Made by a program: the position numbers and the translations under genes. The notes beneath the pieces were generated by a model that was not told the DNA's origin, did not search any database, and saw only the letters and a list, made by a program, of their open reading frames with translations. From IMG/VR virus record IMGVR_UViG_2521172732_000010: 45,810 nucleotides of DNA; one strand, 5' to 3'. Source of the stretch: a virus (Duplodnaviria; Heunggongvirae; Uroviricota; Caudoviricetes). Each line of letters begins with the position of its first letter. Position 1 is the first letter of the stretch. Shown here piece by piece: positions 1-45,810 of this stretch.

Positions 1-1143
1 CTATGCTGTTTTGATATCTACGATAATCCAGTCTTTACCACGATCATCATTGTATCGGTCGGTCATTTTTCTGGATTTATGACCTAACAACTTTTGCGTA
101 TCCAGACCCTGTTCCCGATATAACCGTTCTGACAGAGATCGCTGCTCATGAAATGTGGGCGCAGTTCCTTGCTCCCATTTTATGCCACATTTTTCCCTGG
201 CCTTTTTAAAAGCCGTTGTAAGAGTATTTGCAGACACCTGGTCTCCTCTGTTTGCTTGAGAGGTAGTGTGACGGTAATGGACCAGATATTTACTAACAAC
301 AGCATCCCTGCACTGAGATATAACTTCACGAAGGGTAATATTCAGAGCATCGCATTTCAGGTTAAGCGGAATAGCAAGTTTTGAACCGGTTTTTTCCTGA
401 GTAATGTGCAACATGTCGTCCCAGATATCAGAGAATTTCAAATTGCAGATATCGCCTAAACGTTGTCCAGTGACAAGAGCAAGTAGCATCCCGCATTTTA
501 AATAGGGCTGCCGTCTGCTTACGCTGTCAAATATTGCCTGCCATTCGGGCAGTGATAATCTTTGGCGGTTTACTCGATTTCGCGGTTGTTTTGTTGCCTG
601 CGCTGGGTTAAATCCTGGCGGAACATGTCCTGCGTGTTGTGCTTCTTTGAAGACGTCGATCAACACCATTCTCACGACTTGCGCCATCCTGTTATGACCT
701 TCAGCCTTTACAGCATCAATTATTTCGGCAATATCAAGTGCGGTAATATCCTTGAGGTGTTGCATTCCACAATGCTCACGGAAAAGACGAATGGGTTTGC
801 CTTTTTGCCGATAGGAGTTGGGTCTTAGTTCATTATGTTGCAGCCTGTCCTCCTGGATAGAAATATATTTATCAAGCCATTCTGTCACCGTAATGTCTGA
901 GCGCCTGCCTTTCATTCTTTCTAGACGCTCATTGACGCTTAATATTTGTCGGGTACGTTGTTCAGCAATAATGGTATTTGCTTCAGTAGCAACTTGTTTT
1001 GCTTCATTCTCATCAGTTCCTAAGCTATGAAAACGACCGGATAGTGGATGTTTGTATTGCCAATATACCTTTCCGGTTCGCTTATCTAATTTGCAATATA
1101 AATTGGGTATAGAGATTTTGTGAGATCGGGGTCTAGCAGCCAT
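1..1143 (-). CDS. int: tyrosine integrase (lambda Int family, not lambda Int itself)
   Basis: 380-aa ORF at the prophage left end next to xis; C-terminal region (HEQRSLSERLY...LLGHKS...DRYNDDRG) resembles the catalytic tail of lambda-family integrases; stop codon at 1-3. Confidence 0.85.
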   Translation of the reverse strand: MAARPRSHKISIPNLYCKLDKRTGKVYWQYKHPLSGRFHSLGTDENEAKQVATEANTIIAEQRTRQILSVNERLERMKGRRSDITVTEWLDKYISIQEDRLQHNELRPNSYRQKGKPIRLFREHCGMQHLKDITALDIAEIIDAVKAEGHNRMAQVVRMVLIDVFKEAQHAGHVPPGFNPAQATKQPRNRVNRQRLSLPEWQAIFDSVSRRQPYLKCGMLLALVTGQRLGDICNLKFSDIWDDMLHITQEKTGSKLAIPLNLKCDALNITLREVISQCRDAVVSKYLVHYRHTTSQANRGDQVSANTLTTAFKKAREKCGIKWEQGTAPTFHEQRSLSERLYREQGLDTQKLLGHKSRKMTDRYNDDRGKDWIIVDIKTA

Positions 1144-1369
1144 CAGCGATTATCCGTTGGAGTTTTGGGTTTGCGTTTATTGGGAGTTGCGGTTCTGCAA
1201 GCGTTCCTACAAAACGGGAATTTCGGTCAATCATCCAGTAGCGACCAACTTTTATAGCGGGTGGGGCCATCATTTTCCCTTGCGCGTATTTTTTCAGAAC
1301 TCGCTCACTTGGTGCTAAGTCCCCAAATTCTTCTTTAGCCCAGTCCTGTAAAGTGATTAGTCGAGACAT
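1133..1369 (-). CDS. xis: excisionase-like protein
   Basis: 78-aa ORF overlapping the int start by 11 nt in the position of lambda xis; sequence differs from lambda Xis. Confidence 0.6.
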   Translation of the reverse strand: MSRLITLQDWAKEEFGDLAPSERVLKKYAQGKMMAPPAIKVGRYWMIDRNSRFVGTLAEPQLPINANPKLQRIIADGC

Positions 1370-1647
1370 TTGTCCTCCTCTTAGCTGCTGAGGGAGTTTG
1401 TGACCGATATATCTGACATGATATTAAGCTCATGGCAGGTACATCTCTTGACTGGTCATAGAGATAAATTTAATGCTGAGAAATGCAGTATTGAATTTAT
1501 CAATTTTTCTATTTCCTGCGTATGGCACGTAACTTCTTAATGTGTTCTGCCGTTTCGATCTCTTCTGCTATCCGATCTGCATCAGCTTTATTCACAGGTT
1601 CAAAGTCATGATTAAAGCGGAACATGCTGGCGATACATGTTCTGCCT

Positions 1648-2704
1648 GGCTTTGTTGAATAAATCGAACTTTTGCTGAGTTGAAGGATCAGATCACGCAT
1701 CTTCCCGACAACGCAGACCGTTCCGTGGCAAAGCAAAAGTTCAAAATCACCAACTGGCCCACCTACAATAAAGCCCTCATCAACCGTGGCTCCATAACTT
1801 TCTGGCTGGATGATGAAGCTATTCAGGCCTGGTATGAATCAGCAACACCTTCTTCACGAGGCAGACCTCAGCGCTATTCTGACCTTGCCATCACGACTGT
1901 GCTGGTCATTAAACGCGTATTCAGGCTGACCCTGCGCGCTGCGCAGGGCTTTATTGATTCCATTTTTTCTCTGATGAACGTTCCGCTACGCTGCCCGGAT
2001 TACAGCTGTGTCAGCAGGCGGGCAAAGTCGGTTAACGTCAGTTTCAAAACGCCCACCCGGGGTGAAATCGCACACCTGGTAATTGATTCCACCGGGCTGA
2101 AAGTCTTCGGTGAAGGCGAGTGGAAAGTCAAAAAGCATGGCCAGGAACGCCGCCGTATCTGGCGTAAGCTGCATCTCGCCGTTGACAGTAAAACACATGA
2201 AATCATCTGCGCTGACCTGTCGCTGAACAACGTTACGGACTCAGAGGCCTTCCCCGGGTTAATCCGGCAAACCCACCGGAAAATCAGGTCAGCCGCCGCC
2301 GATGGCGCTTACGACACCCGGCTCTGTCACGATGAACTGCGGCGTAAGAAAATCAGCGCGCTTATCCCTCCCCGAAAAGGTGCGGGTTACTGGCCCGGTG
2401 AATATGCAGACCGTAACCGTGCAGTGGCTAATCAGCGAATGACCGGGAGTAATGCGCGGTGGAAATGGACAACAGATTACAACCGTCGCTCGATAGCGGA
2501 AACGGCGATGTACCGGGTAAAACAGCTGTTCGGGGGTTCACTGACGCTGCGTGACTACGATGGTCAGGTTGCGGAGGCTATGGCCCTGGTACGAGCGCTG
2601 AACAAAATGACGAAAGCAGGTATGCCTGAAAGCGTGCGTATTGCCTGAAAACACAACCCGCTACGGGGGAGACTTACCCGAAATCTGATTTATTCAACAA
2701 AGCC
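1648..2704 (+). mobile_element. IS903-type insertion sequence (IS5 family), 1057 bp
   Basis: Terminal inverted repeats ggctttgttgaataaatcg at 1648 and its reverse complement ending at 2704; flanked by perfect 9-bp direct repeat gttctgcct at 1639-1647 and 2705-2713; internal transposase ORF. Confidence 0.9.
1680..2648 (+). CDS. IS903-family DDE transposase (start codon uncertain)
   Basis: 322-aa ORF filling the IS; NWPTYNKALINRGSITFW motif region typical of IS903-group transposases as I recall them. Confidence 0.85.
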   Translation: MKDQITHLPDNADRSVAKQKFKITNWPTYNKALINRGSITFWLDDEAIQAWYESATPSSRGRPQRYSDLAITTVLVIKRVFRLTLRAAQGFIDSIFSLMNVPLRCPDYSCVSRRAKSVNVSFKTPTRGEIAHLVIDSTGLKVFGEGEWKVKKHGQERRRIWRKLHLAVDSKTHEIICADLSLNNVTDSEAFPGLIRQTHRKIRSAAADGAYDTRLCHDELRRKKISALIPPRKGAGYWPGEYADRNRAVANQRMTGSNARWKWTTDYNRRSIAETAMYRVKQLFGGSLTLRDYDGQVAEAMALVRALNKMTKAGMPESVRIA

Positions 2705-2861
2705 GTTCTGCCTTTTCGGATGTAGTGAACTTTGTTGTGGGTAGAACGCAGGATTTTGCAGGGAGTGCCGTGGTGGTCGACGTACCAGGTGTTAGGAAAA
2801 ATGATTCTGAACATTTTTACACCTCAGTTGGACGATGTTGAAATTTACTGCTTTGAGGCCA

Positions 2862-3080
2862 TCACAGCCCCCATTGTTTGTTCTTAAGTTCGATCTCCTC
2901 CTGGCAACTTGCACAAGTCCGACAACCCTGAACGGCCAGGCGTCTTCGTTCATCTATCGGATCGCCACACTCACAACAATGAGTGGCAGATATAGCCTGG
3001 TGGTTCAGGCGGCGCATTTTTATTGCTGTGTTGCGCTGTAATTCTTCAATTTCTGATGCTGAATCAATGATGTCTGCCAT
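2862..3080 (-). CDS. TraR/DksA-family C4 zinc-finger protein
   Basis: 72-aa ORF with two Cys pairs (CCECG ... CRTCASC) typical of phage TraR-like zinc fingers. Confidence 0.6.
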   Translation of the reverse strand: MADIIDSASEIEELQRNTAIKMRRLNHQAISATHCCECGDPIDERRRLAVQGCRTCASCQEEIELKNKQWGL

Positions 3081-3178
3081 CTTTCATTAATCCCTGAATT
3101 GTTGGTTAATACGCTTGAGGGTGAATGCGAATAATAAAAAAGGAGCCTGTAGCTCCATGATGATTTTGTTTTTCATGT

Positions 3179-3394
3179 TCACCGTTCCTTAAAGACGCCG
3201 TTTAACATGCCGATCGCCAGGCTTAAATGAGTCGGTGTGAATCCCATCAGCGTTACCGTTTCGCGGTGCTTTTTCAGTACGCTACGGCAAATGTCATCGA
3301 CGTTTTTATCCGGAAACTGCGGTCTGGCTTTTTTGATTTCAGAATTAGCCTGACGGGCAATACTGCGAAGGGCGTTTTCTTGCTGAGGTGTCAT
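3179..3394 (-). CDS. small early-left (delta region) hypothetical protein, in the position of lambda orf61
   Basis: ORF in the pL operon between the zinc-finger ORF and orf63; start chosen at internal ATG (MTPQQ...). Confidence 0.5.
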   Translation of the reverse strand: MTPQQENALRSIARQANSEIKKARPQFPDKNVDDICRSVLKKHRETVTLMGFTPTHLSLAIGMLNGVFKER

Positions 3395-3470
3395 TGAACA
3401 AGTCCCATGTCGGCAAGCATAAGCACACAGAATATGAAGCCCGCTGCCAGAAAAATGCATTCAGTGGTTG

Positions 3471-3662
3471 TCATACCTGGTCTCTCTCATCTGCTTCTGC
3501 TTTCGCCACCATCATTTCCAGCTTTTGTGAAAGGGATGTGGCTAACGTATGAAATTCTTCGTCTGTTTCTGCTGGTATTGGCACAAACCTGACTCCAATT
3601 TGAGCAAGGCTATGTGCCATCTCAATGCTCGTTCTTAACTCAACAGGAGATGCTTTGTGCAT
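3471..3662 (-). CDS. lambda Orf63-like protein
   Basis: 63-aa [26 protein letters not shown]... matching my recollection of lambda orf63. Confidence 0.75.
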   Translation of the reverse strand: MHKASPVELRTSIEMAHSLAQIGVRFVPIPAETDEEFHTLATSLSQKLEMMVAKAEADERDQV

Positions 3663-5795: not shown

Positions 5796-5928
5796 TCTTT
5801 GGGACTCCTGGCTGATTAAGTATGTCGATAAGGCGTTTCCATCCGTCACGTAATTTACGGGTGATTCGTTCAAGTAAAGATTCGGAAGGGCAGCCAGCAA
5901 CAGGCCACCCTGCAATGGCATATTGCAT
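5764..5928 (-). CDS. cIII: CIII (FtsH inhibitor)
   Basis: 54 codons MQYAIAGWPVAGCPSESLLERITRKLRDGW... ; overlaps kil by 32 nt as in lambda; ORF is below the size cut-off of the supplied track. Confidence 0.85.
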   Translation of the reverse strand: MQYAIAGWPVAGCPSESLLERITRKLRDGWKRLIDILNQPGVPKNGSNTYGYPD

Positions 5929-6000
5929 GGTGTGCTCCTTATTTATACATAACGAAAAACGCCTCGAGTGAAGCGTAATTGGTATGCGGTAACGCTGCGC

Positions 6001-6965: not shown

Positions 6966-7547
6966 ATGAACAACTCATGGTGGCAGGAACTAATGCATTT
7001 TTTCCTGCAAGGAATGACACTTAAACAGTTGATTCATATGCTAATCATCCTGATCATATTGATTATTGTTATGCCGGTAAGCGTGAAAGAATGGATAAAC
7101 CTGCATAATCCAGAAATCCTTCCTCATTACTGGATGTATTACATCCTGTTGTTTTGCGTTAGCTATGTGCTTAACGGCGTTGTTAATTCCGCTTATCACG
7201 CTGTGACTGAAAGAATTGAGGTATTCGCTGCTCAGAAGCGCAAATCTAAAGAAGAAAAATATGTGCAAGATTTGTTTGATTCGTTAACTCTTGGAGAAAG
7301 AGCGTATTTGGCATTCGCTGTAGCCGCTAATAACCAGCTACAAACGGAAAAGGGAGCTCATGAATCAATTTCATTGCTCAAAAAAGGACTCCTCGTTCGA
7401 AGGCCTCCTGCTGTTGGATATCCTGATACCGACCGTTTCGTTATCCCTGAAAGCTATAGACATGAGTGCTACATTAGGTTTGCCAGGAAGGCAGACAGCC
7501 TTATGGATGAACTTATCGCTCAGGATAAGCATGGCAAAAACAAGTAA
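6966..7547 (+). CDS. sieB: superinfection exclusion protein B
   Basis: 193-aa membrane protein MNNSWWQELMHFFLQGMTLKQLIHMLIILIILIIVMPV...; between ral and N on the opposite strand. Confidence 0.85.
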   Translation: MNNSWWQELMHFFLQGMTLKQLIHMLIILIILIIVMPVSVKEWINLHNPEILPHYWMYYILLFCVSYVLNGVVNSAYHAVTERIEVFAAQKRKSKEEKYVQDLFDSLTLGERAYLAFAVAANNQLQTEKGAHESISLLKKGLLVRRPPAVGYPDTDRFVIPESYRHECYIRFARKADSLMDELIAQDKHGKNK

Positions 7548-7563
7548 TTAGCAAATGAATTTA

Positions 7564-7836
7564 TCATCTCGCCGTCAATTGTTTTGATTTCCGGTAGCCT
7601 GCCGCGTAAACGGCTACGTTTGGCAGGCAAATACTTCCACTGCATTCATCTGCCTTCTTGCAGCGAAGGCTTCCGAGTGATGCTGCTTTGTCTGCTCTGA
7701 CGCAACCAGAGAGCTTTAGCGCAATTTTTCGCGCCAGTCGCTGTTCTTGCATTGCCTGCTCACGTTGAGCCTGTCTGCGTGCTCTGCGGCGATTTCTGGC
7801 GTTATCGTCAGCCAGATATGTAATGACTACTGCCAT
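7564..7836 (-). CDS. N: N-type transcription antiterminator (P22 gp24-like)
   Basis: Arginine-rich motif NARNRRRARRQAQREQ near the N-terminus, C-terminus ...YAAGYRKSKQLTAR; immediately downstream of nutL/pL; start taken at MAVVITY. Confidence 0.8.
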   Translation of the reverse strand: MAVVITYLADDNARNRRRARRQAQREQAMQEQRLARKIALKLSGCVRADKAASLGSLRCKKADECSGSICLPNVAVYAAGYRKSKQLTAR

Positions 7837-7943
7837 GTTGACCTCCGATGATTGACTTTGGCGGTGACGCGCCGGGTGCATATCTTTCGGTTGCCGTCAT
7901 GCAGCTGCACTTCACGTCACCCCAAAGCCAACTACTCTTTGGT

Positions 7944-7985
7944 TCCCGCATTTCGGCGGGACAATCCCATCAATGTTAAAGAGCC
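7944..7985 (-). promoter_or_regulatory. nutL (boxA ggctctttaaca plus boxB hairpin)
   Basis: Minus-strand boxA followed by hairpin tcccgccgaaatgcggga; the identical boxB occurs at nutR. Confidence 0.75.
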
Positions 7986-8024: not shown

Positions 8025-8105
8025 GACTTAAATTTAAGATTTCTTTAATTGTTGGTTAAGGTGGTTTTGAAGAAAACTTAAATTTATTGCGAAGTTTAAG
8101 TTTTG
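8025..8105 (-). promoter_or_regulatory. OL operator repeats and pL region
   Basis: Repeated ACTTAAATTTAAG / TTAAG-type half-sites resembling P22 c2 operators, upstream of N on the minus strand. Confidence 0.55.
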
Positions 8106-8120
8106 CTTTGATTTTTAAAG

Positions 8121-8146
8121 GAAAGAAAAAAGGGGCGAATGCCCCT
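8121..8146 (-). terminator. intrinsic terminator after the repressor gene
   Basis: Minus-strand hairpin ggggcattcgcccc followed by a T-rich tail (tttttctttc), directly after the cI stop. Confidence 0.6.
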
Positions 8147-8796
8147 TATGGAAGGTTTGCTATTTTTGCATCGACAACTACACCGATGATTTTGCAGTTC
8201 CCGTTGATCTCAATCATCGGATATTGTGGGTTAAGTGGTTTTAGAAACCTTCTGCCAGCATCAATAACTAACTTCTTGAAAGTTGCCTCGTTTTCTCCTT
8301 CGAGCTTTGCCACTACCAGCTTCCCATTACGAGGTTCTACTTCAGGATCGACTAGTATTATCATCCCTTCCGGGATGCTAAGACCGGCTGGAGCCGTCAT
8401 CGAATCACCCTTTACGTCCAGCCAAAACGAATCTTCTGAACAATCTACGGTTGTATCGTACCAGTTATCTATTGCACGCTTATGATATGGCTCTACAGCT
8501 TCCATCCAACATCCTGCGCTTACCCAACTAATTAGAGGATACGAACCTCTTGGATCATGCCTGCTGTGATAGGCAATGTTTGAAAGACTATCTTCTCCTT
8601 TCAACAAGTAATCAGGGGAGCACTGTAAAGCCTTGGCTAAAGCCAATAGGTTTTCGCCATTGGGCTCAGTTTCAGAACGCTCCCATTGGGAAATAGCAAC
8701 ATTAGACACGCCAACCATCTTGCCAAGGGCAGCCTGCCTAATCTTAAGTTCTTTTCTGCGAGCGCGAATACGCTCACCCATCAGTTGTGTATTCAT
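8146..8796 (-). CDS. cI: prophage repressor, P22 C2 type (LexA-like HTH plus S24 peptidase domain)
   Basis: 216-aa ORF MNTQLMGERIRARRKELKIRQAALGKMVGVSNVAISQWERSE... matching my recollection of P22 C2. Confidence 0.9.
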   Translation of the reverse strand: MNTQLMGERIRARRKELKIRQAALGKMVGVSNVAISQWERSETEPNGENLLALAKALQCSPDYLLKGEDSLSNIAYHSRHDPRGSYPLISWVSAGCWMEAVEPYHKRAIDNWYDTTVDCSEDSFWLDVKGDSMTAPAGLSIPEGMIILVDPEVEPRNGKLVVAKLEGENEATFKKLVIDAGRRFLKPLNPQYPMIEINGNCKIIGVVVDAKIANLP

Positions 8797-8863
8797 AGTT
8801 AAGACATCTTAAATAAACTTGACTTAAGATTCCTTTGATAGATAATTTAAGTATTCTTTAATT
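8797..8863. promoter_or_regulatory. OR operators (three 18-bp sites) with divergent pRM/pR
   Basis: Three sites close to ATTTAAGATATCTTAAAT at 8797-8814, about 8822-8839 and 8845-8862, between divergent cI and cro. Confidence 0.7.
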
Positions 8864-9068: not shown

Positions 9069-9113
9069 TGCTCTTTAACAGTCATGGTCCTTATTCCCGC
9101 CGAAATGCGGGAA
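9069..9113 (+). promoter_or_regulatory. nutR (boxA tgctctttaaca plus boxB hairpin)
   Basis: boxA at 9069-9080 and hairpin ttcccgccgaaatgcgggaa at 9094-9113, just downstream of cro. Confidence 0.75.
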
Positions 9114-42068: not shown

Positions 42069-42959
42069 TTAGTTTTTACTATTTATCTTTGTTTGTGGTT
42101 CTCCTTCAGCAAGCTCAGCGCCAGTGACAGGATTGATGTCTTCATGGGATTTCAACCTTGTTGCCATAGCTTTTATCATAGCTTCTTGCTTGGTCGAAAG
42201 ATTTATCGAGGCCTTCCCATCCCCACCGTCAACCGCTGGAACTGGATCGGAAACATAGTCAAAGTTTTCATCACTGTTCCAACTACCTCTGACGTCTTCA
42301 CCTTCTGACATGTTGTAATATACGTTTTTGTATTTCTCAAGTGGTGGTAATTTTCCTGGTGGAAAGGTGTTACGAATTGAATGTAATGCTTTTTCAAATG
42401 AAAGCATGTGTGCTGCTTCCCTGGTCATTAAAAATGCCAGAGTGTCTTTTACTCCAGGATCATCAGTAACATTAATGAGACGTTCGTAAATGATCTTTGC
42501 CCGAGCTTCAGCTGCAATATTTGAACGAAGATCGGCCGTGACTTCGCCAATAGTATCAACATAAGCTGCAGTCCAGGGTACTCCAGCTGAATTAGTTAAT
42601 GCTGGGCCTCCTCCGTAGAGGAGAGAAGTTATATGGCTATCATTGCCATTTTGAGTTAAGGAACGGTAAAGCTCAGCTTCATTCTCAGTTCCTTCAGCAA
42701 GTGCTCCTTTTGCACCTTTGTTGAGCATACCAACAAGAGAACCAATAATTTCGAGATGACTTAGTTCTTCTGTTGCTATGTCCATCAGCATATCCCTTCG
42801 GCCTGCATCTTCATCACTTAAGCCTTGAGTGAAGTATCGGCATGCTGCTGCAAGCTCACCCTGTGGCCCACCGAATTGTTCTAAGAGTAGATTAGCCAAG
42901 CCTGGGTTTGGCTCACTTACACGTACTGTATATTGAAGTTTTTTCACGTGTCTAAACAT
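42069..42959 (-). CDS. katN: manganese catalase (KatN-like, ferritin-like superfamily)
   Basis: 296-aa ORF with Mn-catalase-like sequence (LSDEDAGRRDMLMDIATEELSHLEIIG...), last gene of a yciG-yciF-yciE-katN arrangement. Confidence 0.75.
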   Translation of the reverse strand: MFRHVKKLQYTVRVSEPNPGLANLLLEQFGGPQGELAAACRYFTQGLSDEDAGRRDMLMDIATEELSHLEIIGSLVGMLNKGAKGALAEGTENEAELYRSLTQNGNDSHITSLLYGGGPALTNSAGVPWTAAYVDTIGEVTADLRSNIAAEARAKIIYERLINVTDDPGVKDTLAFLMTREAAHMLSFEKALHSIRNTFPPGKLPPLEKYKNVYYNMSEGEDVRGSWNSDENFDYVSDPVPAVDGGDGKASINLSTKQEAMIKAMATRLKSHEDINPVTGAELAEGEPQTKINSKN

Positions 42960-42977
42960 AATGCCTCCTCAAAAGAA

Positions 42978-43484
42978 TTATTTTTTGGCTTCAACTCCAT
43001 CAATTTCAGATCTGACCATGAATTGCTCAGTGGTGTCAGGAATATGGTTAAGAAGCCATTCAGCCATTTGTTTTTCTTCATTAAGAATTGCTTCAATAAT
43101 GGGTACTGAAGCTGTATCACCCGCATTTTTGGCTGCTGCGAGAAGAGATGTGTAACACGCAATTTCAAATTGTTCGAACACATAGCCACTGATCGAACCT
43201 TTGACAATTTCATCAGATGGAAAAATTCCACCAATGGATTGTCCAAACGCGGCCATTTTACTCATAGAGTCTTTAATGACAGAGCGCGAAATATTATTAC
43301 GATCAAGTATGCTTTCAAGCTGTGAAAGCTGGTTCTTTGTTTCGCTAATGTGCTGCTCAATTCTGGAACGTAACTCAGGATAGTTTTCTATCCGGCTGGC
43401 CATAGACTCAAGCATTTTTTCAGCTTGTTTTTCCATCGCATGTGCATCACGAAGCCAGTCATGGTAATGTTCAATTCTATTCAT
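42978..43484 (-). CDS. yciE: YciE-like ferritin-like (DUF892) stress protein
   Basis: 168-aa ORF MNRIEHYHDWLRDAHAMEKQAEKMLESMASRIENYPELR... Confidence 0.8.
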   Translation of the reverse strand: MNRIEHYHDWLRDAHAMEKQAEKMLESMASRIENYPELRSRIEQHISETKNQLSQLESILDRNNISRSVIKDSMSKMAAFGQSIGGIFPSDEIVKGSISGYVFEQFEIACYTSLLAAAKNAGDTASVPIIEAILNEEKQMAEWLLNHIPDTTEQFMVRSEIDGVEAKK

Positions 43485-43520
43485 AATCTGTTTATCCTAA
43501 AAGAAATTGAAGTCTATAAT

Positions 43521-44027
43521 TCAGGAGTTATCCTGAGCTTTTTTATTAACGTTATTAAATGCCAGGTCTGTTAATTTGACATCAGTAGCTTTTTCCTCTT
43601 CCAGTGTTTCTTTCAGGAGTTTAGCCGCTTTTTTATATCCTAATTGCTCAGCGAGTGTTACCAAAGTGCCATAACTGGCAATTTCATAGTGCTCTACTTT
43701 TTGTGCTGCAGCAATCAATGCAGCATCACGTACTTCATTTTTATCAGTGCTTTCAATTACCTCATTCGCCTCTTCGATAAGTCCTTCCATTGCGGCACAC
43801 TTAATTCTTTTCAATTTAAGACCATCTTCAGAATCAACAACCTGATCGATGCGTTCAATTTGACCATGTGTCTCATCAAGATGTGACTGAAAAGCAGCGG
43901 TTAATTTATCACTATATGCAGAGCGACTAAGTTTAGACAGTGCCTTTGTTAGTTGTTTCTCAGCGCTGTATGTATCCGATAATAAGTGGATGAAGATATC
44001 TTCAACAGATTTAATTTGCATAATCAC
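43521..44027 (-). CDS. yciF: YciF-like ferritin-like (DUF892) stress protein
   Basis: 168-aa ORF ...SVEDIFIHLLSDTYSAEKQLTKALSKL...; start codon uncertain. Confidence 0.8.
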   Translation of the reverse strand: MIMQIKSVEDIFIHLLSDTYSAEKQLTKALSKLSRSAYSDKLTAAFQSHLDETHGQIERIDQVVDSEDGLKLKRIKCAAMEGLIEEANEVIESTDKNEVRDAALIAAAQKVEHYEIASYGTLVTLAEQLGYKKAAKLLKETLEEEKATDVKLTDLAFNNVNKKAQDNS

Positions 44028-44099
44028 TCCAGAGTTTTCACTGCGAGCCCGTAGGCTCGCAGTTAGCTTCAGTTATTCACGAATGTAGGGGGTGATAAA

Positions 44100-44282
44100 T
44101 TAAGAGCCAGATTTACGGCCGCCACCATGGCTATTCTGACCACCTTTTTTCCCTGCTTCTGATGCTCTTTGTGGATCGTTTTTAAAATTACCGCCACTAT
44201 GTTGGCCGCCTTTACTACCAGCGTCAGAAGCTTTTTGTCGATCTTCAGCGAAATTACCTGCACCGCCACGATGTTCGGTCAT
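44100..44282 (-). CDS. yciG: YciG-like KGG-repeat general stress protein
   Basis: 60-aa Gly-rich ORF with repeated KGGQ-type motifs. Confidence 0.75.
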   Translation of the reverse strand: MTEHRGGAGNFAEDRQKASDAGSKGGQHSGGNFKNDPQRASEAGKKGGQNSHGGGRKSGS

Positions 44283-44724
44283 ATCATTTCTCCTCTGATT
44301 TTCAAATTGTAAATAACATGTGCCTTGTCAGCACCCAATTAACTCTAGTAACAAATAAGAAAGTGTCAAATAAGAGATTGGTATGCGCATCTTAATGTGA
44401 GAAATAGCAATTGTAAAAATGTGTACTCAGTGAGTATAATCTATTGATATCTTGGTGATTAACGGAAAGTTTAGGTTGTAACTCAAAAGATTAATAAATC
44501 TAAATTTACATTTCTATATCTTTTGATGTGTATGGCGTTGTTTTTCTCAATCAGAACATTCTAAAAAATAATTTAATTACACGGCGGTAGTTGTTAATGT
44601 TTTTACGACTCTTCCTAATGAAGTCTGTTTCTTGGATAAATAGAGAAATTTTATCTTAAGGACTAATTACAAAAACATCTATATAGCCACAGGAATCATT
44701 ATTGTACTTAACTACAATATTTGA

Positions 44725-44774
44725 GAGTAAAAATTAAACCGCAGACACGGCGTATGCAAGAACGTGCTGCGGTT
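44725..44774 (-). terminator. intrinsic terminator downstream of the methyltransferase gene
   Basis: Minus-strand hairpin aaccgcagcacg...cgtgtctgcggtt followed by taattttt. Confidence 0.6.
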
Positions 44775-44779
44775 GGATG

Positions 44780-45448
44780 CTATTTTTTCCCTGAAGCGGA
44801 AAACATTACTACAGTACCTTGAACCTTGGTTTTAACATTCTCGAAATGCTCTGAGAGTATATGTGTTAAGCCTTCTTCGGAATCTTTTGTGTTTGAAAAG
44901 ATGCCTTTCTGATTGTAAATGCGCATCAGTTTTTGACCGAAGCTATTGTGCACAACTCCATCGCCAAGAATTGTGGCTCCGTATAGAGTTCCATCGTCAG
45001 TTAAGGCCTGCGCCGCATTGCGTATTACACAGCTTTTTGTAGATATATTTCCAGGCAGGCAGTGAAGAAGGTAAAACATGGAAATGGAATCAAATTGACC
45101 ATGTAACGCCGCGGGATAAGGTTCAAAAACATCATGGCTAATTTTATGTTTAATTTTTGATTCCCCAGCCCTTGTAGATGCCGCGTTCAGGCTAGCTTCG
45201 TTCAAATCCATTAAAGATATCAGACTACTCTCAGGTACGTGAGTAAGGTAAAACCCAGTTCCAACACCAATATCCAGATGGTTGTTACCTAAATGTTCCA
45301 GAAAGTGTGGAAGAAGGTGTTCCTTTGTAGGACATCCCCATGCAAGACGATTTGATACTCCCAAAACCCACCAGTCATAAAGCTTTAGGGTAAGTGGTGT
45401 GTAAATTTTAGCCCCATCATCTGTGTTTTTTTTCATTAATTTCACCAT
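44780..45448 (-). CDS. class I SAM-dependent methyltransferase (substrate unknown)
   Basis: 222-aa ORF with motif I LDIGVGTGF. Confidence 0.65.
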   Translation of the reverse strand: MVKLMKKNTDDGAKIYTPLTLKLYDWWVLGVSNRLAWGCPTKEHLLPHFLEHLGNNHLDIGVGTGFYLTHVPESSLISLMDLNEASLNAASTRAGESKIKHKISHDVFEPYPAALHGQFDSISMFYLLHCLPGNISTKSCVIRNAAQALTDDGTLYGATILGDGVVHNSFGQKLMRIYNQKGIFSNTKDSEEGLTHILSEHFENVKTKVQGTVVMFSASGKK

Positions 45449-45504: not shown

Positions 45505-45810
45505 ATGCTGCCGCAGCATAGCGATATTGAAATAGCCTGGTATGCTGCGATACAGCAGGAGCCGAATGGCTGGAAGACCGTCACCACACAGTTCTACATC
45601 CAGGAATTCAGTGAGTATATTGCGCCACTGCAGGATGCTGTAGATCTGGAAATCGCAACGGAGGAAGAAAGATCGTTGCTGGAGGCATGGAATAAATATC
45701 GGGTATTGTTGAATCGTGTTGATACATCAGTAGCTCTGGGTATGAAGCTGTTTGTAACTCATGTTACAGTAATGGCTATTACTATCTCGAAGGTGCAAAA
45801 TGTATATTGA
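45505..45810 (+). pseudogene. truncated tail fibre assembly (tfa) C-terminal remnant
   Basis: Contains ...[37 protein letters not shown], about 90 percent identical at DNA level to 41788-41907 of tfa, but lacks the tfa N-terminal region and has a divergent tail. Confidence 0.6.
45610..45729 (+). repeat. about 120-bp direct repeat of tfa 41788-41907
   Basis: agtgag(c/t)atattgcgccact(t/g)caggatgctgtagatctggaaatcgcaacggaggaagaaa... present at both positions in the same orientation. Confidence 0.85.

What the first reader, a model, noticed from the sequence alone, without database searches (positions are those of the whole stretch)
1639..2713. Recent IS903-type insertion with perfect 9-bp target duplication inside an early-left phage ORF
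A 1057-bp element with IS903-like terminal inverted repeats is flanked by identical gttctgcct copies. Removing it rejoins a 79-codon minus-strand ORF between xis and the TraR-like gene. Transcription from pL towards xis/int must now cross the IS, which could affect int/xis expression and excision.
Basis: seen in the sequence. Interest (0 to 1): 0.5.

Follow-up and report, generated by a model that had tools for sequence, protein, structure and literature searches.

The report
IS903B insertion in a prophage gene
A common 1,057-bp jumping gene (IS903B) has recently landed in a small non-essential gene of a lambda-like E. coli prophage; this is a clean but ordinary event that probably does little beyond knocking out that one gene.

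Summary
Window 1648-2704 is a 1,057-bp IS903B with perfect 18-bp terminal inverted repeats and an intact DDE transposase gene. It is flanked by identical 9-bp copies of GTTCTGCCT (1639-1647 and 2705-2713). It is 100% identical to IS903B copies on E. coli plasmids. An almost isogenic prophage without the IS sits at icd in E. coli O111:H21 strain 15A. That prophage carries one copy of the target and an intact 79-codon gene (Pfam DUF4222) between xis and the TraR/DksA-like gene, so the insertion is real and recent. It cuts the gene at codon 37, inside its only domain. A strong effect on excision is unlikely. The phage has an N/nut antitermination system and the pL operon already contains a native terminator. 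Phage HK022 carries an IS903 in its pL operon and is viable. The prophage is already defective, with a stop codon in the capsid gene. The one small point of added interest is that the disrupted gene belongs to the family of RgdR, a prophage-encoded virulence regulator of EHEC. The element and the phenomenon are already known; interest is low.

The parts
1639..1647 (.). Left copy of the 9-bp target-site duplication, GTTCTGCCT
   Evidence: Present as a single copy in the IS-free relatives.
1648..2704 (+). IS903B (IS5 family, IS903 group), 1,057 bp
   Evidence: 100% identical over its full length to copies on E. coli plasmids NZ_CP093070.1 and NZ_CP136994.1, annotated 'IS5-like element IS903B family transposase'. 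99.2-99.3% identical to the IS903 of P7 and HK022.
1648..1665 (+). Left terminal inverted repeat, GGCTTTGTTGAATAAATC
   Evidence: 18/18 match to the reverse complement of the right end. Only one copy of each end occurs in the window.
2687..2704 (-). Right terminal inverted repeat
1680..2648 (+). Transposase ORF: 322 codons from TTG as RefSeq annotates it, or 307 codons from GTG at 1725 as the HK022 record annotates it. It is uninterrupted.
   Evidence: Pfam DDE_Tnp_1_5 (3.4e-40, full profile) and DDE_Tnp_1 (6.6e-33).
2705..2713 (.). Right copy of the 9-bp target-site duplication, GTTCTGCCT
2705..2814 (-). 5' part of the disrupted DUF4222 gene (codons 1-37). As it now stands it reads into the IS and stops at 2674, giving a 46-aa product.
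1509..1647 (-). 3' part of the disrupted DUF4222 gene (codons 38-79 plus stop)
   Evidence: The intact 240-nt gene is annotated in phage 4A7 (gp36) and in E. coli 15A (WP_000488406.1).
1133..1369 (-). Excisionase gene (xis), downstream of the IS in the pL transcription unit
   Evidence: Pfam Exc; annotated excisionase in relatives
1..1143 (-). Lambda-type tyrosine integrase gene (integrates at icd)
   Evidence: Pfam Arm-DNA-bind_1 and Phage_integrase. Lies next to icd in strain 15A.
2862..3080 (-). TraR/DksA-type C4 zinc-finger gene, immediately upstream of the disrupted gene in pL sense
   Evidence: Pfam zf-dskA_traR
3142..3156 (-). Native intrinsic-terminator-like hairpin followed by TTTTTTATTA, inside the pL operon and upstream of the IS
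   Evidence: Lies in the stretch shared with IS-free relatives.
7564..7836 (-). N-like antiterminator gene
   Evidence: phrog_271 'anti-termination protein N-like', 1.1e-33. Identical to the 15A protein.
7943..7984 (-). nutL candidate: boxA-like GCTCTTTAAC followed by the boxB hairpin TCCCGCCGAAATGCGGGA
   Evidence: The boxB arm is 19/19 identical and the boxA arm 16/18 identical to a second copy downstream of cro.
9070..9113 (+). nutR candidate (same boxA and boxB on the rightward strand)

Best explanation
An IS903B copy transposed into an icd-integrated lambdoid prophage of E. coli. The donor was most likely a plasmid or another chromosomal copy in the same cell. The DDE transposase made cuts staggered by 9 bp, and repair of the gaps duplicated GTTCTGCCT. 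The insertion splits a 79-codon DUF4222 gene at codon 37, inside its only domain (residues 3-53), and so inactivates it. That gene lies in the dispensable early-left segment between xis and a TraR-like gene, and it belongs to the same Pfam family as the EHEC regulator RgdR. The transposase gene points against pL transcription. After induction, the pL transcript must pass about 1.06 kb of untranslated antisense IS RNA to reach xis and int. The polymerase is expected to be N-modified at nutL, so it should read through, and xis/int expression and excision are probably little changed. Expression of int from a lambda-type cII-dependent promoter inside xis would not be touched. Shown here: the element, its hallmarks, its identity, the empty site, the recency, the gene family and the operon layout. 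Inferred: the knock-out phenotype and the near-absence of polarity.
For: IS hallmarks are, and identity to IS903B. The transposase is intact with both DDE domains. The empty site with a single target copy is 99.6% identical in phages 4A7, 4C10, 1W and 3W and 100% identical in E. coli O111:H21 15A. The 15A prophage matches window 1-1647 with no differences. It matches 2705-45810 with 6 substitutions and 6 indels over 43.1 kb. The same junction is absent from 5,426 complete E. coli genomes, the GTDB species representatives, IMG/VR and the JGI metagenomes. The rejoined protein is DUF4222 at 1.4e-19 and phrog_285 at 8e-37. RgdR/ECs1581 is also DUF4222 and aligns at 30% identity, E = 3e-5. The N-like gene, the paired nutL/nutR, the operator repeats, the cI-like repressor and the cIII thermoregulator define the pL operon. 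A terminator-like site already sits in the operon at 3156-3142, and only one irregular candidate lies on the pL-sense strand of the IS. HK022 and its hybrid O276 carry IS903 directly downstream of nun in the pL operon, upstream of the recombination genes, and are viable phages. From established knowledge, not tested here: N-modified transcription from lambda pL overrides the polarity of IS insertions (Adhya, Gottesman and de Crombrugghe 1974).
Against: No expression data exist for this locus. In HK022 the transposase gene is co-directional with pL, and antitermination there is RNA (put)-mediated, so the precedent is not exact. Rho-dependent termination in the roughly 1.3 kb of untranslated RNA cannot be predicted with these tools. 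Function of the N-like protein and of the nut sites is inferred from sequence alone. The flanks of the target fit the published IS903 preferred motif WTTYA-N9-TRAAW (PMC2577343, Table 1) at only 2 of 10 positions. This is compatible with the known loose specificity of IS903 but gives no positive support.
Confidence: 0.9

Rival explanations
1. The IS is strongly polar. The untranslated antisense IS RNA triggers Rho-dependent or intrinsic termination, xis and int are under-expressed from pL after induction, and the prophage is locked in the chromosome. This is the consequence the first reader suggested.
For: The pL transcript must cross 1,057 bp with no translated frame after the premature stop at 2674. 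One irregular hairpin followed by TTTTTGAC lies on the pL-sense strand near 2134, and a weak 5-bp stem lies at 2302-2289.
Against: The N-like gene and the paired nut sites are intact. The operon already contains a better terminator upstream, at 3156-3142, which pL transcripts must pass in every relative. HK022 tolerates IS903 in its pL operon. N is classically known to suppress IS polarity (own knowledge).
Confidence: 0.15
2. The insertion was selected because it removes an RgdR-family small regulator, and so changes host phenotypes such as type III secretion, motility or curli.
For: The gene is DUF4222, as is RgdR. RgdR activates LEE1 and represses motility, and the family is described as prophage-associated and pleiotropic (PMC3378721; PMC10877973).
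Against: Identity to RgdR is only 30% over 47 residues, and the functionally important RGD motif has no counterpart; the aligned position reads PNT. As part of the repressed pL operon, the gene is expected to be silent in a lysogen. This is a single occurrence with no recurrence in 5,426 genomes, which argues for a neutral hit in dispensable DNA.
Confidence: 0.07
3. The IS provides an outward or hybrid promoter that drives xis/int constitutively and so raises spontaneous excision.
For: None was found here. This is only a general property of some other IS elements.
Against: The scan found no promoter-like site on the minus strand anywhere in 1100-3300. The left IS end plus its flank contains no good -35/-10 pair on inspection.
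Confidence: 0.02
4. The IS is an assembly artefact: a repeat placed at the wrong position.
For: The window shows several homopolymer-length differences from its near-identical relative, which suggests an error-prone assembly.
Against: A misplaced repeat would not create an exact 9-bp duplication of a target that is single-copy in relatives, with the break exactly at the IS termini.
Confidence: 0.02

Closest known systems
IS903 / IS903B (IS5 family, IS903 group)
   Same: Length of 1,057 bp, 18-bp terminal inverted repeats, 9-bp target duplication and a single DDE transposase ORF. It is 100% identical to annotated IS903B copies and 99.2-99.3% identical to the IS903 of P7 and HK022.
   Different: Only the insertion site differs. 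That site was not found in any collection searched.
IS903 in the pL operon of coliphage HK022 (and the hybrid O276)
   Same: The same IS (99.2% identity) lies inside the leftward early operon of a lambdoid phage, with a perfect 9-bp duplication (TCATTCCAA). Genes downstream of it depend on antiterminated read-through.
   Different: In HK022 the IS sits just after nun, far upstream of the recombination genes, with the transposase gene co-directional with pL. Antitermination there is put-RNA-mediated. Here the IS lies next to xis, is antisense to pL, interrupts a coding gene, and the phage uses an N/nut system.
IS903-group insertions in the xis-to-TraR segment of other E. coli lambdoid prophages (strains S115 and 81EVA)
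   Same: The same dispensable segment and the same orientation, with the transposase gene antisense to pL. S115 has a perfect 9-bp duplication, CTTTTTTGC.
   Different: They are different prophages (lambda-type int at ybhC), with different target sequences and different genes hit. The 81EVA element is only about 89% identical and its transposase gene is frameshifted.
RgdR (ECs1581), a prophage-encoded regulator of LEE and motility in EHEC O157:H7
   Same: The disrupted gene encodes a small, basic, prophage-borne protein with the same Pfam domain, DUF4222.
   Different: Identity is 30% over 47 residues. The protein here is 79 aa rather than 99 aa and has no RGD motif. It sits in a lambdoid pL operon rather than a P4-like element. 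Its function has not been tested.

Membership tests
IS903 group of the IS5 family | Element length of about 1,057 bp | tested here: met
   1648-2704 = 1,057 bp
IS903 group of the IS5 family | 18-bp perfect terminal inverted repeats, GGCTTTGTTGAATAAATC | tested here: met
   18/18. The same ends are found in the HK022 and S115 copies.
IS903 group of the IS5 family | 9-bp direct target duplication | tested here: met
   GTTCTGCCT on both sides, and a single copy in the empty sites
IS903 group of the IS5 family | Single uninterrupted DDE transposase ORF (about 307 aa) | tested here: met
   ORF 1680/1725-2648. Pfam DDE_Tnp_1_5 and DDE_Tnp_1 are well above their cut-offs.
IS903 group of the IS5 family | Nucleotide identity to named reference copies | tested here: met
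   100% to RefSeq 'IS903B family' copies; 99.2-99.3% to the IS903 of P7 and HK022. ISfinder itself could not be queried.
IS903 group of the IS5 family | Transposition activity | not testable with these tools
   Inferred only from the intact ORF, the intact ends and the fresh duplication
IS903 group of the IS5 family | Preferred target motif WTTYA-N9-TRAAW (a preference, not a requirement) | tested here: not met
   The flanks TACAT / TTTCG match 2 of 10 positions. IS903 inserts at many non-consensus sites, so this does not argue against membership.
DUF4222 / RgdR family of small prophage proteins | Pfam PF13973 match above the gathering score | tested here: met
   69.8 bits against a cut-off of 27, residues 3-53, full profile
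DUF4222 / RgdR family of small prophage proteins | RGD motif important for RgdR activity | tested here: not met
   Extending the pairwise alignment (which starts at RgdR residue 24 = residue 11 here) places RgdR residues 20-22 opposite PNT
DUF4222 / RgdR family of small prophage proteins | Regulatory or DNA-binding activity | not testable with these tools
   No solved structure of any relative; no experiment
Lambda-type N/nut antitermination (relevant to read-through of the IS) | N-like protein encoded as the first gene of the pL operon | tested here: met
   phrog_271, 1.1e-33. The gene lies directly downstream of nutL.
Lambda-type N/nut antitermination (relevant to read-through of the IS) | boxA plus boxB hairpin present downstream of both pL and pR | tested here: met
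   7943-7984 (-) and 9070-9113 (+); boxB 19/19 and boxA 16/18 identical
Lambda-type N/nut antitermination (relevant to read-through of the IS) | Terminator read-through in vivo | not testable with these tools
   Needs transcript measurements

The most novel reading that the evidence does not exclude
The xis-proximal early-left segment of lambdoid prophages may be a recurrent landing pad for IS903-group elements in one orientation, with the transposase gene antisense to pL (this window, S115, 81EVA). In this case the hit silences an RgdR-family regulator, with a measurable effect on host virulence or motility gene expression or on prophage stability.
Probability: 0.06. Interest if true: 0.35.

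Novelty: already known. Interest (0 to 1): 0.1.

Why it matters
It matters little beyond annotation. The locus should be annotated as IS903B plus a disrupted DUF4222 gene, not as two short hypothetical ORFs. The IS marks this prophage lineage as a very recent derivative of the icd prophage seen in E. coli O111:H21 strain 15A, which could serve as a strain-typing marker. If the RgdR-like protein has a host-regulatory role, this allele is a natural knock-out with an almost isogenic wild-type counterpart. The pair could also be used to measure IS polarity under N antitermination. Neither use addresses an open question that could not already be approached by other means.

Tried and rejected
I searched both junction sequences exactly in the GTDB species-representative genomes (two scans). 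I searched the left junction in IMG/VR and in the JGI metagenomes. None gave a match. A megablast of 1100-3200 against 5,426 complete E. coli genomes found no genome covering >=80% of it. The source strain, or any sibling with the same insertion, is therefore not in those collections.

I looked for intrinsic terminators on the pL-sense strand inside the IS, using both the consensus scan and a hairpin-plus-U-tract scan of my own. Only weak or irregular candidates turned up. The minus-strand scan for an outward promoter at the left IS end found nothing.

The good hairpin terminator annotated inside IS903 in phage O276 lies on the transposase-sense strand, at 1930-1948 here. It is not followed by a T-run in the antisense direction, so it is irrelevant to pL transcripts in this orientation.

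The published IS903 target motif does not fit this site. A search of solved structures with the 79-aa protein returned nothing. I looked for attR within 1.6 kb of the right end of the window in strain 15A and did not find it there. It lies about 4.8 kb further on.

Pfam, PHROGs and the RefSeq annotations already answered the conservation question.

Full report
**1. Observation**

The sequence shows GTTCTGCCT at 1639-1647 and again at 2705-2713. Between the two copies lies a 1,057-bp element, 1648-2704. Its ends are perfect 18-bp inverted repeats, GGCTTTGTTGAATAAATC, with weaker complementarity out to 33 nt. The 9-mer occurs only three times on the + strand of the whole window. An identical 9-mer abutting both termini is not plausibly chance, at about 4^-9 for fixed positions. 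Removing the element and one repeat copy restores a 79-codon minus-strand ORF, 1509-1647 joined to 2714-2814.

**2. What the element is**

- The 1,057 bp are 100% identical to copies on E. coli plasmids NZ_CP093070.1 and NZ_CP136994.1, and on a third plasmid, NZ_JBRNHQ010000002.1. All three are annotated 'IS5-like element IS903B family transposase'.
- At least 5,000 plasmids carry copies at 90-100% identity.
- The copies annotated IS903 in phages P7 and HK022 are 99.2-99.3% identical.
- The single ORF (1680-2648 from TTG as RefSeq annotates it; 1725-2648 from GTG, 307 codons, as the HK022 record does) is uninterrupted. It matches Pfam DDE_Tnp_1_5 (3.4e-40, full profile) and DDE_Tnp_1 (6.6e-33).
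- All structural criteria of the IS903 group are met. Only activity cannot be tested here.
- The flanks of the target (TACAT ... TTTCG) fit the published preference WTTYA-N9-TRAAW (Table 1 of PMC2577343) at 2 of 10 positions. This is not a preferred site, but that is unremarkable for an element with loose specificity.

**3. The empty site and the age of the insertion**

- The reconstructed empty site (1,034 nt) is 99.6% identical in phages 4A7, 4C10, 1W and 3W. There the 240-nt gene is annotated 'DUF4222 domain-containing protein', between excisionase and a DksA-like zinc-finger gene.
- The window-to-4A7 alignment breaks exactly at 1647/2705, with a 9-bp overlap in 4A7. The relative therefore has one copy of the target.
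- Among 5,426 complete E. coli genomes, 1,215 cover >=80% of the empty site. One of them, O111:H21 strain 15A (NZ_CP077477.1), matches at 100%.
- The 15A prophage sits at icd and is almost isogenic with the window. Window 1-1647 shows no differences. Window 2705-45810 shows 6 substitutions and 6 indels over 43.1 kb.
- No complete E. coli genome covers >=80% of the IS-bearing stretch 1100-3200. Exact-junction scans of the GTDB representatives, IMG/VR and the JGI metagenomes found nothing.
- A perfect duplication, an IS identical to circulating copies, an intact transposase gene and a near-identical IS-free sibling together make 'recent' well supported.

**4. The gene that was hit**

- The rejoined 79-aa protein matches Pfam DUF4222 (1.4e-19, residues 3-53) and phrog_285 (8e-37). 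No relative has a solved structure.
- The insertion falls at codon 37, inside the domain. The remaining product is 37 native residues plus 9 residues encoded by the IS.
- The one characterised DUF4222 protein found in the paper search is RgdR (ECs1581) of EHEC O157:H7. It is a 99-aa prophage-encoded activator of LEE1 and repressor of motility that binds DNA non-specifically (PMC3378721; PMC10877973).
- I retrieved ECs1581 from the Sakai genome. It is DUF4222 and aligns with the protein here at 30% identity over 47 residues, E = 3e-5.
- The RGD motif of RgdR has no counterpart here. The relationship is therefore at family level, not orthology.

**5. Operon context and likely consequence**

- Leftward from a cI-like repressor gene (8146-8796) lie operator-like repeats (8029-8104, mirrored at 8801-8861).
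- Next comes a boxA-like GCTCTTTAAC followed by the hairpin TCCCGCCGAAATGCGGGA at 7984-7943. This pair is repeated on the other strand downstream of cro, at 9070-9113.
- Then follows an N-like gene (phrog_271, 1.1e-33).
- After that come the cIII thermoregulator RNA (Rfam) and the kil/gam/bet/exo block.
- The rest of the operon is DUF1317, DUF1382, a 93-aa ORF, a terminator-like hairpin with a T-run (3156-3142, minus strand), the TraR-like gene, the disrupted gene, xis and int.

I consider a strong effect unlikely, for five reasons.

- (a) The N/nut system appears intact. N-modified polymerase classically overrides IS polarity and terminators (Adhya et al. 1974; my own knowledge, not tested here).
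- (b) Every relative already has a better terminator upstream of the insertion point.
- (c) On the pL-sense strand, the IS contains only irregular terminator candidates.
- (d) HK022 and O276 carry IS903 just downstream of nun in the pL operon. Their antiterminated transcription nevertheless reaches the recombination genes. Two caveats apply: the transposase gene there is co-directional with pL, and antitermination is put-mediated.
- (e) In lambda-type phages, int for integration is transcribed from a promoter inside xis, downstream of the IS (established knowledge).

This part is inference. I give the polar, 'locked-in' alternative about 15%.

**6. Wider context that lowers the stakes**

- The prophage is already defective. 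The major capsid gene carries an in-frame TAA at 25670-25672, shared with strain 15A, where RefSeq marks it a pseudogene.
- Relative to 15A, the window also has a 4-bp deletion that frameshifts the Q antiterminator gene. It has single-base homopolymer changes that frameshift the W-like, L and side-tail-fibre genes. The homopolymer changes may be sequencing errors.
- In 15A, attR (an icd 3' fragment) lies about 4.8 kb beyond the right end of the window. The window therefore does not hold the whole element.

**7. Comparison with what is known, novelty and score**

- This is a textbook simple insertion of a very common enterobacterial IS into dispensable prophage DNA.
- Independent IS903-group insertions occur in the same xis-to-TraR segment of other lambdoid prophages: S115, with a perfect duplication CTTTTTTGC, and 81EVA, a decayed copy in an ea22-like gene. 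All have the transposase gene antisense to pL.
- Three cases among thousands of prophages and thousands of IS903B copies are no evidence of a hot spot, but I record the pattern.
- The element and the phenomenon are already known. Only the insertion site is new to the collections searched.
- Interest is about 0.1. The small residual comes from the RgdR-family identity of the disrupted gene and from the availability of a natural, almost isogenic wild-type partner.

Noticed in passing
window 24974-25999 (stop at 25670-25672): The lambda E-like major capsid gene has an in-frame TAA (…ELETAV*DLGKAV…). The same stop occurs in the near-isogenic prophage of E. coli O111:H21 strain 15A, where RefSeq marks the gene a pseudogene. 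The prophage therefore cannot build capsids unless the stop is suppressed.
   Followed up: yes
window 14015-14529 (deletion after 14096): The Q antiterminator gene carries a 4-bp deletion (ATTC) relative to strain 15A, which frameshifts it after codon 27. It is not a homopolymer, so it is probably real. If so, late-gene expression would be lost.
   Followed up: partly
window 21601, 32374, 39810 (also intergenic 8125 and 14581): Single-base homopolymer length differences from strain 15A frameshift the W-like head-tail joining gene, the minor tail L gene and the side tail fibre gene in the window only. This pattern suggests long-read sequencing errors rather than decay, but I could not tell which.
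   Followed up: partly
L002 4022-5078 (E. coli S115); L009 ~2500-3560 (E. coli 81EVA); L003 4001-5057 (HK022): There are independent IS903-group insertions in the early-left operon of other lambdoid (pro)phages. In S115 and 81EVA they lie between xis and the TraR-like gene, with the transposase gene antisense to pL, as here. In HK022 the IS lies just after nun, with the transposase gene in pL sense. S115 and HK022 have perfect 9-bp duplications.
   Followed up: partly
window 1509-1647 + 2714-2814 versus L006 3720-4019: The disrupted gene shares Pfam DUF4222 with RgdR (ECs1581), the EHEC prophage regulator of LEE and motility. Identity is 30% over 47 residues, and the RGD motif is absent here.
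   Followed up: yes
window 7943-7984 (-) and 9070-9113 (+): A paired nutL/nutR: an rrn-like boxA (GCTCTTTAAC) followed by the boxB hairpin TCCCGCCGAAATGCGGGA, 19/19 identical between the two sites. Operator-like repeats lie at 8029-8104 and 8801-8861.
   Followed up: partly
window 5883-5941 (-): An Rfam Lambda_thermo (cIII thermoregulator) match at 88.5 bits marks an intact cIII leader.
   Followed up: no
window 42069-45448: A host-like stress-gene cargo lies at the tail-fibre end of the prophage: a manganese catalase, two ferritin-like proteins, a general stress protein and a SAM-dependent methyltransferase. It sits between a tail-fibre assembly gene and a truncated second copy (45598-45810).
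   Followed up: partly
right end of the window; L008 23160-27961: In strain 15A the element continues about 4.8 kb beyond the end of the window (alpha/beta hydrolase, ompT, an HTH protein, an acetyltransferase) before the icd 3' fragment that marks attR. The window is therefore cut short of the true right boundary.
   Followed up: yes
window 14592-14747: tRNA-Ile (GAT) and tRNA-Thr (TGT) genes lie just downstream of the Q gene. RefSeq annotates only the tRNA-Thr in strain 15A.
   Followed up: no
window 6966-7547 (+): A SieB-type superinfection-exclusion gene lies opposite to pL transcription, between the N-like gene and the ea10-like gene. It has one amino-acid difference (K15Q) from strain 15A.
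   Followed up: no
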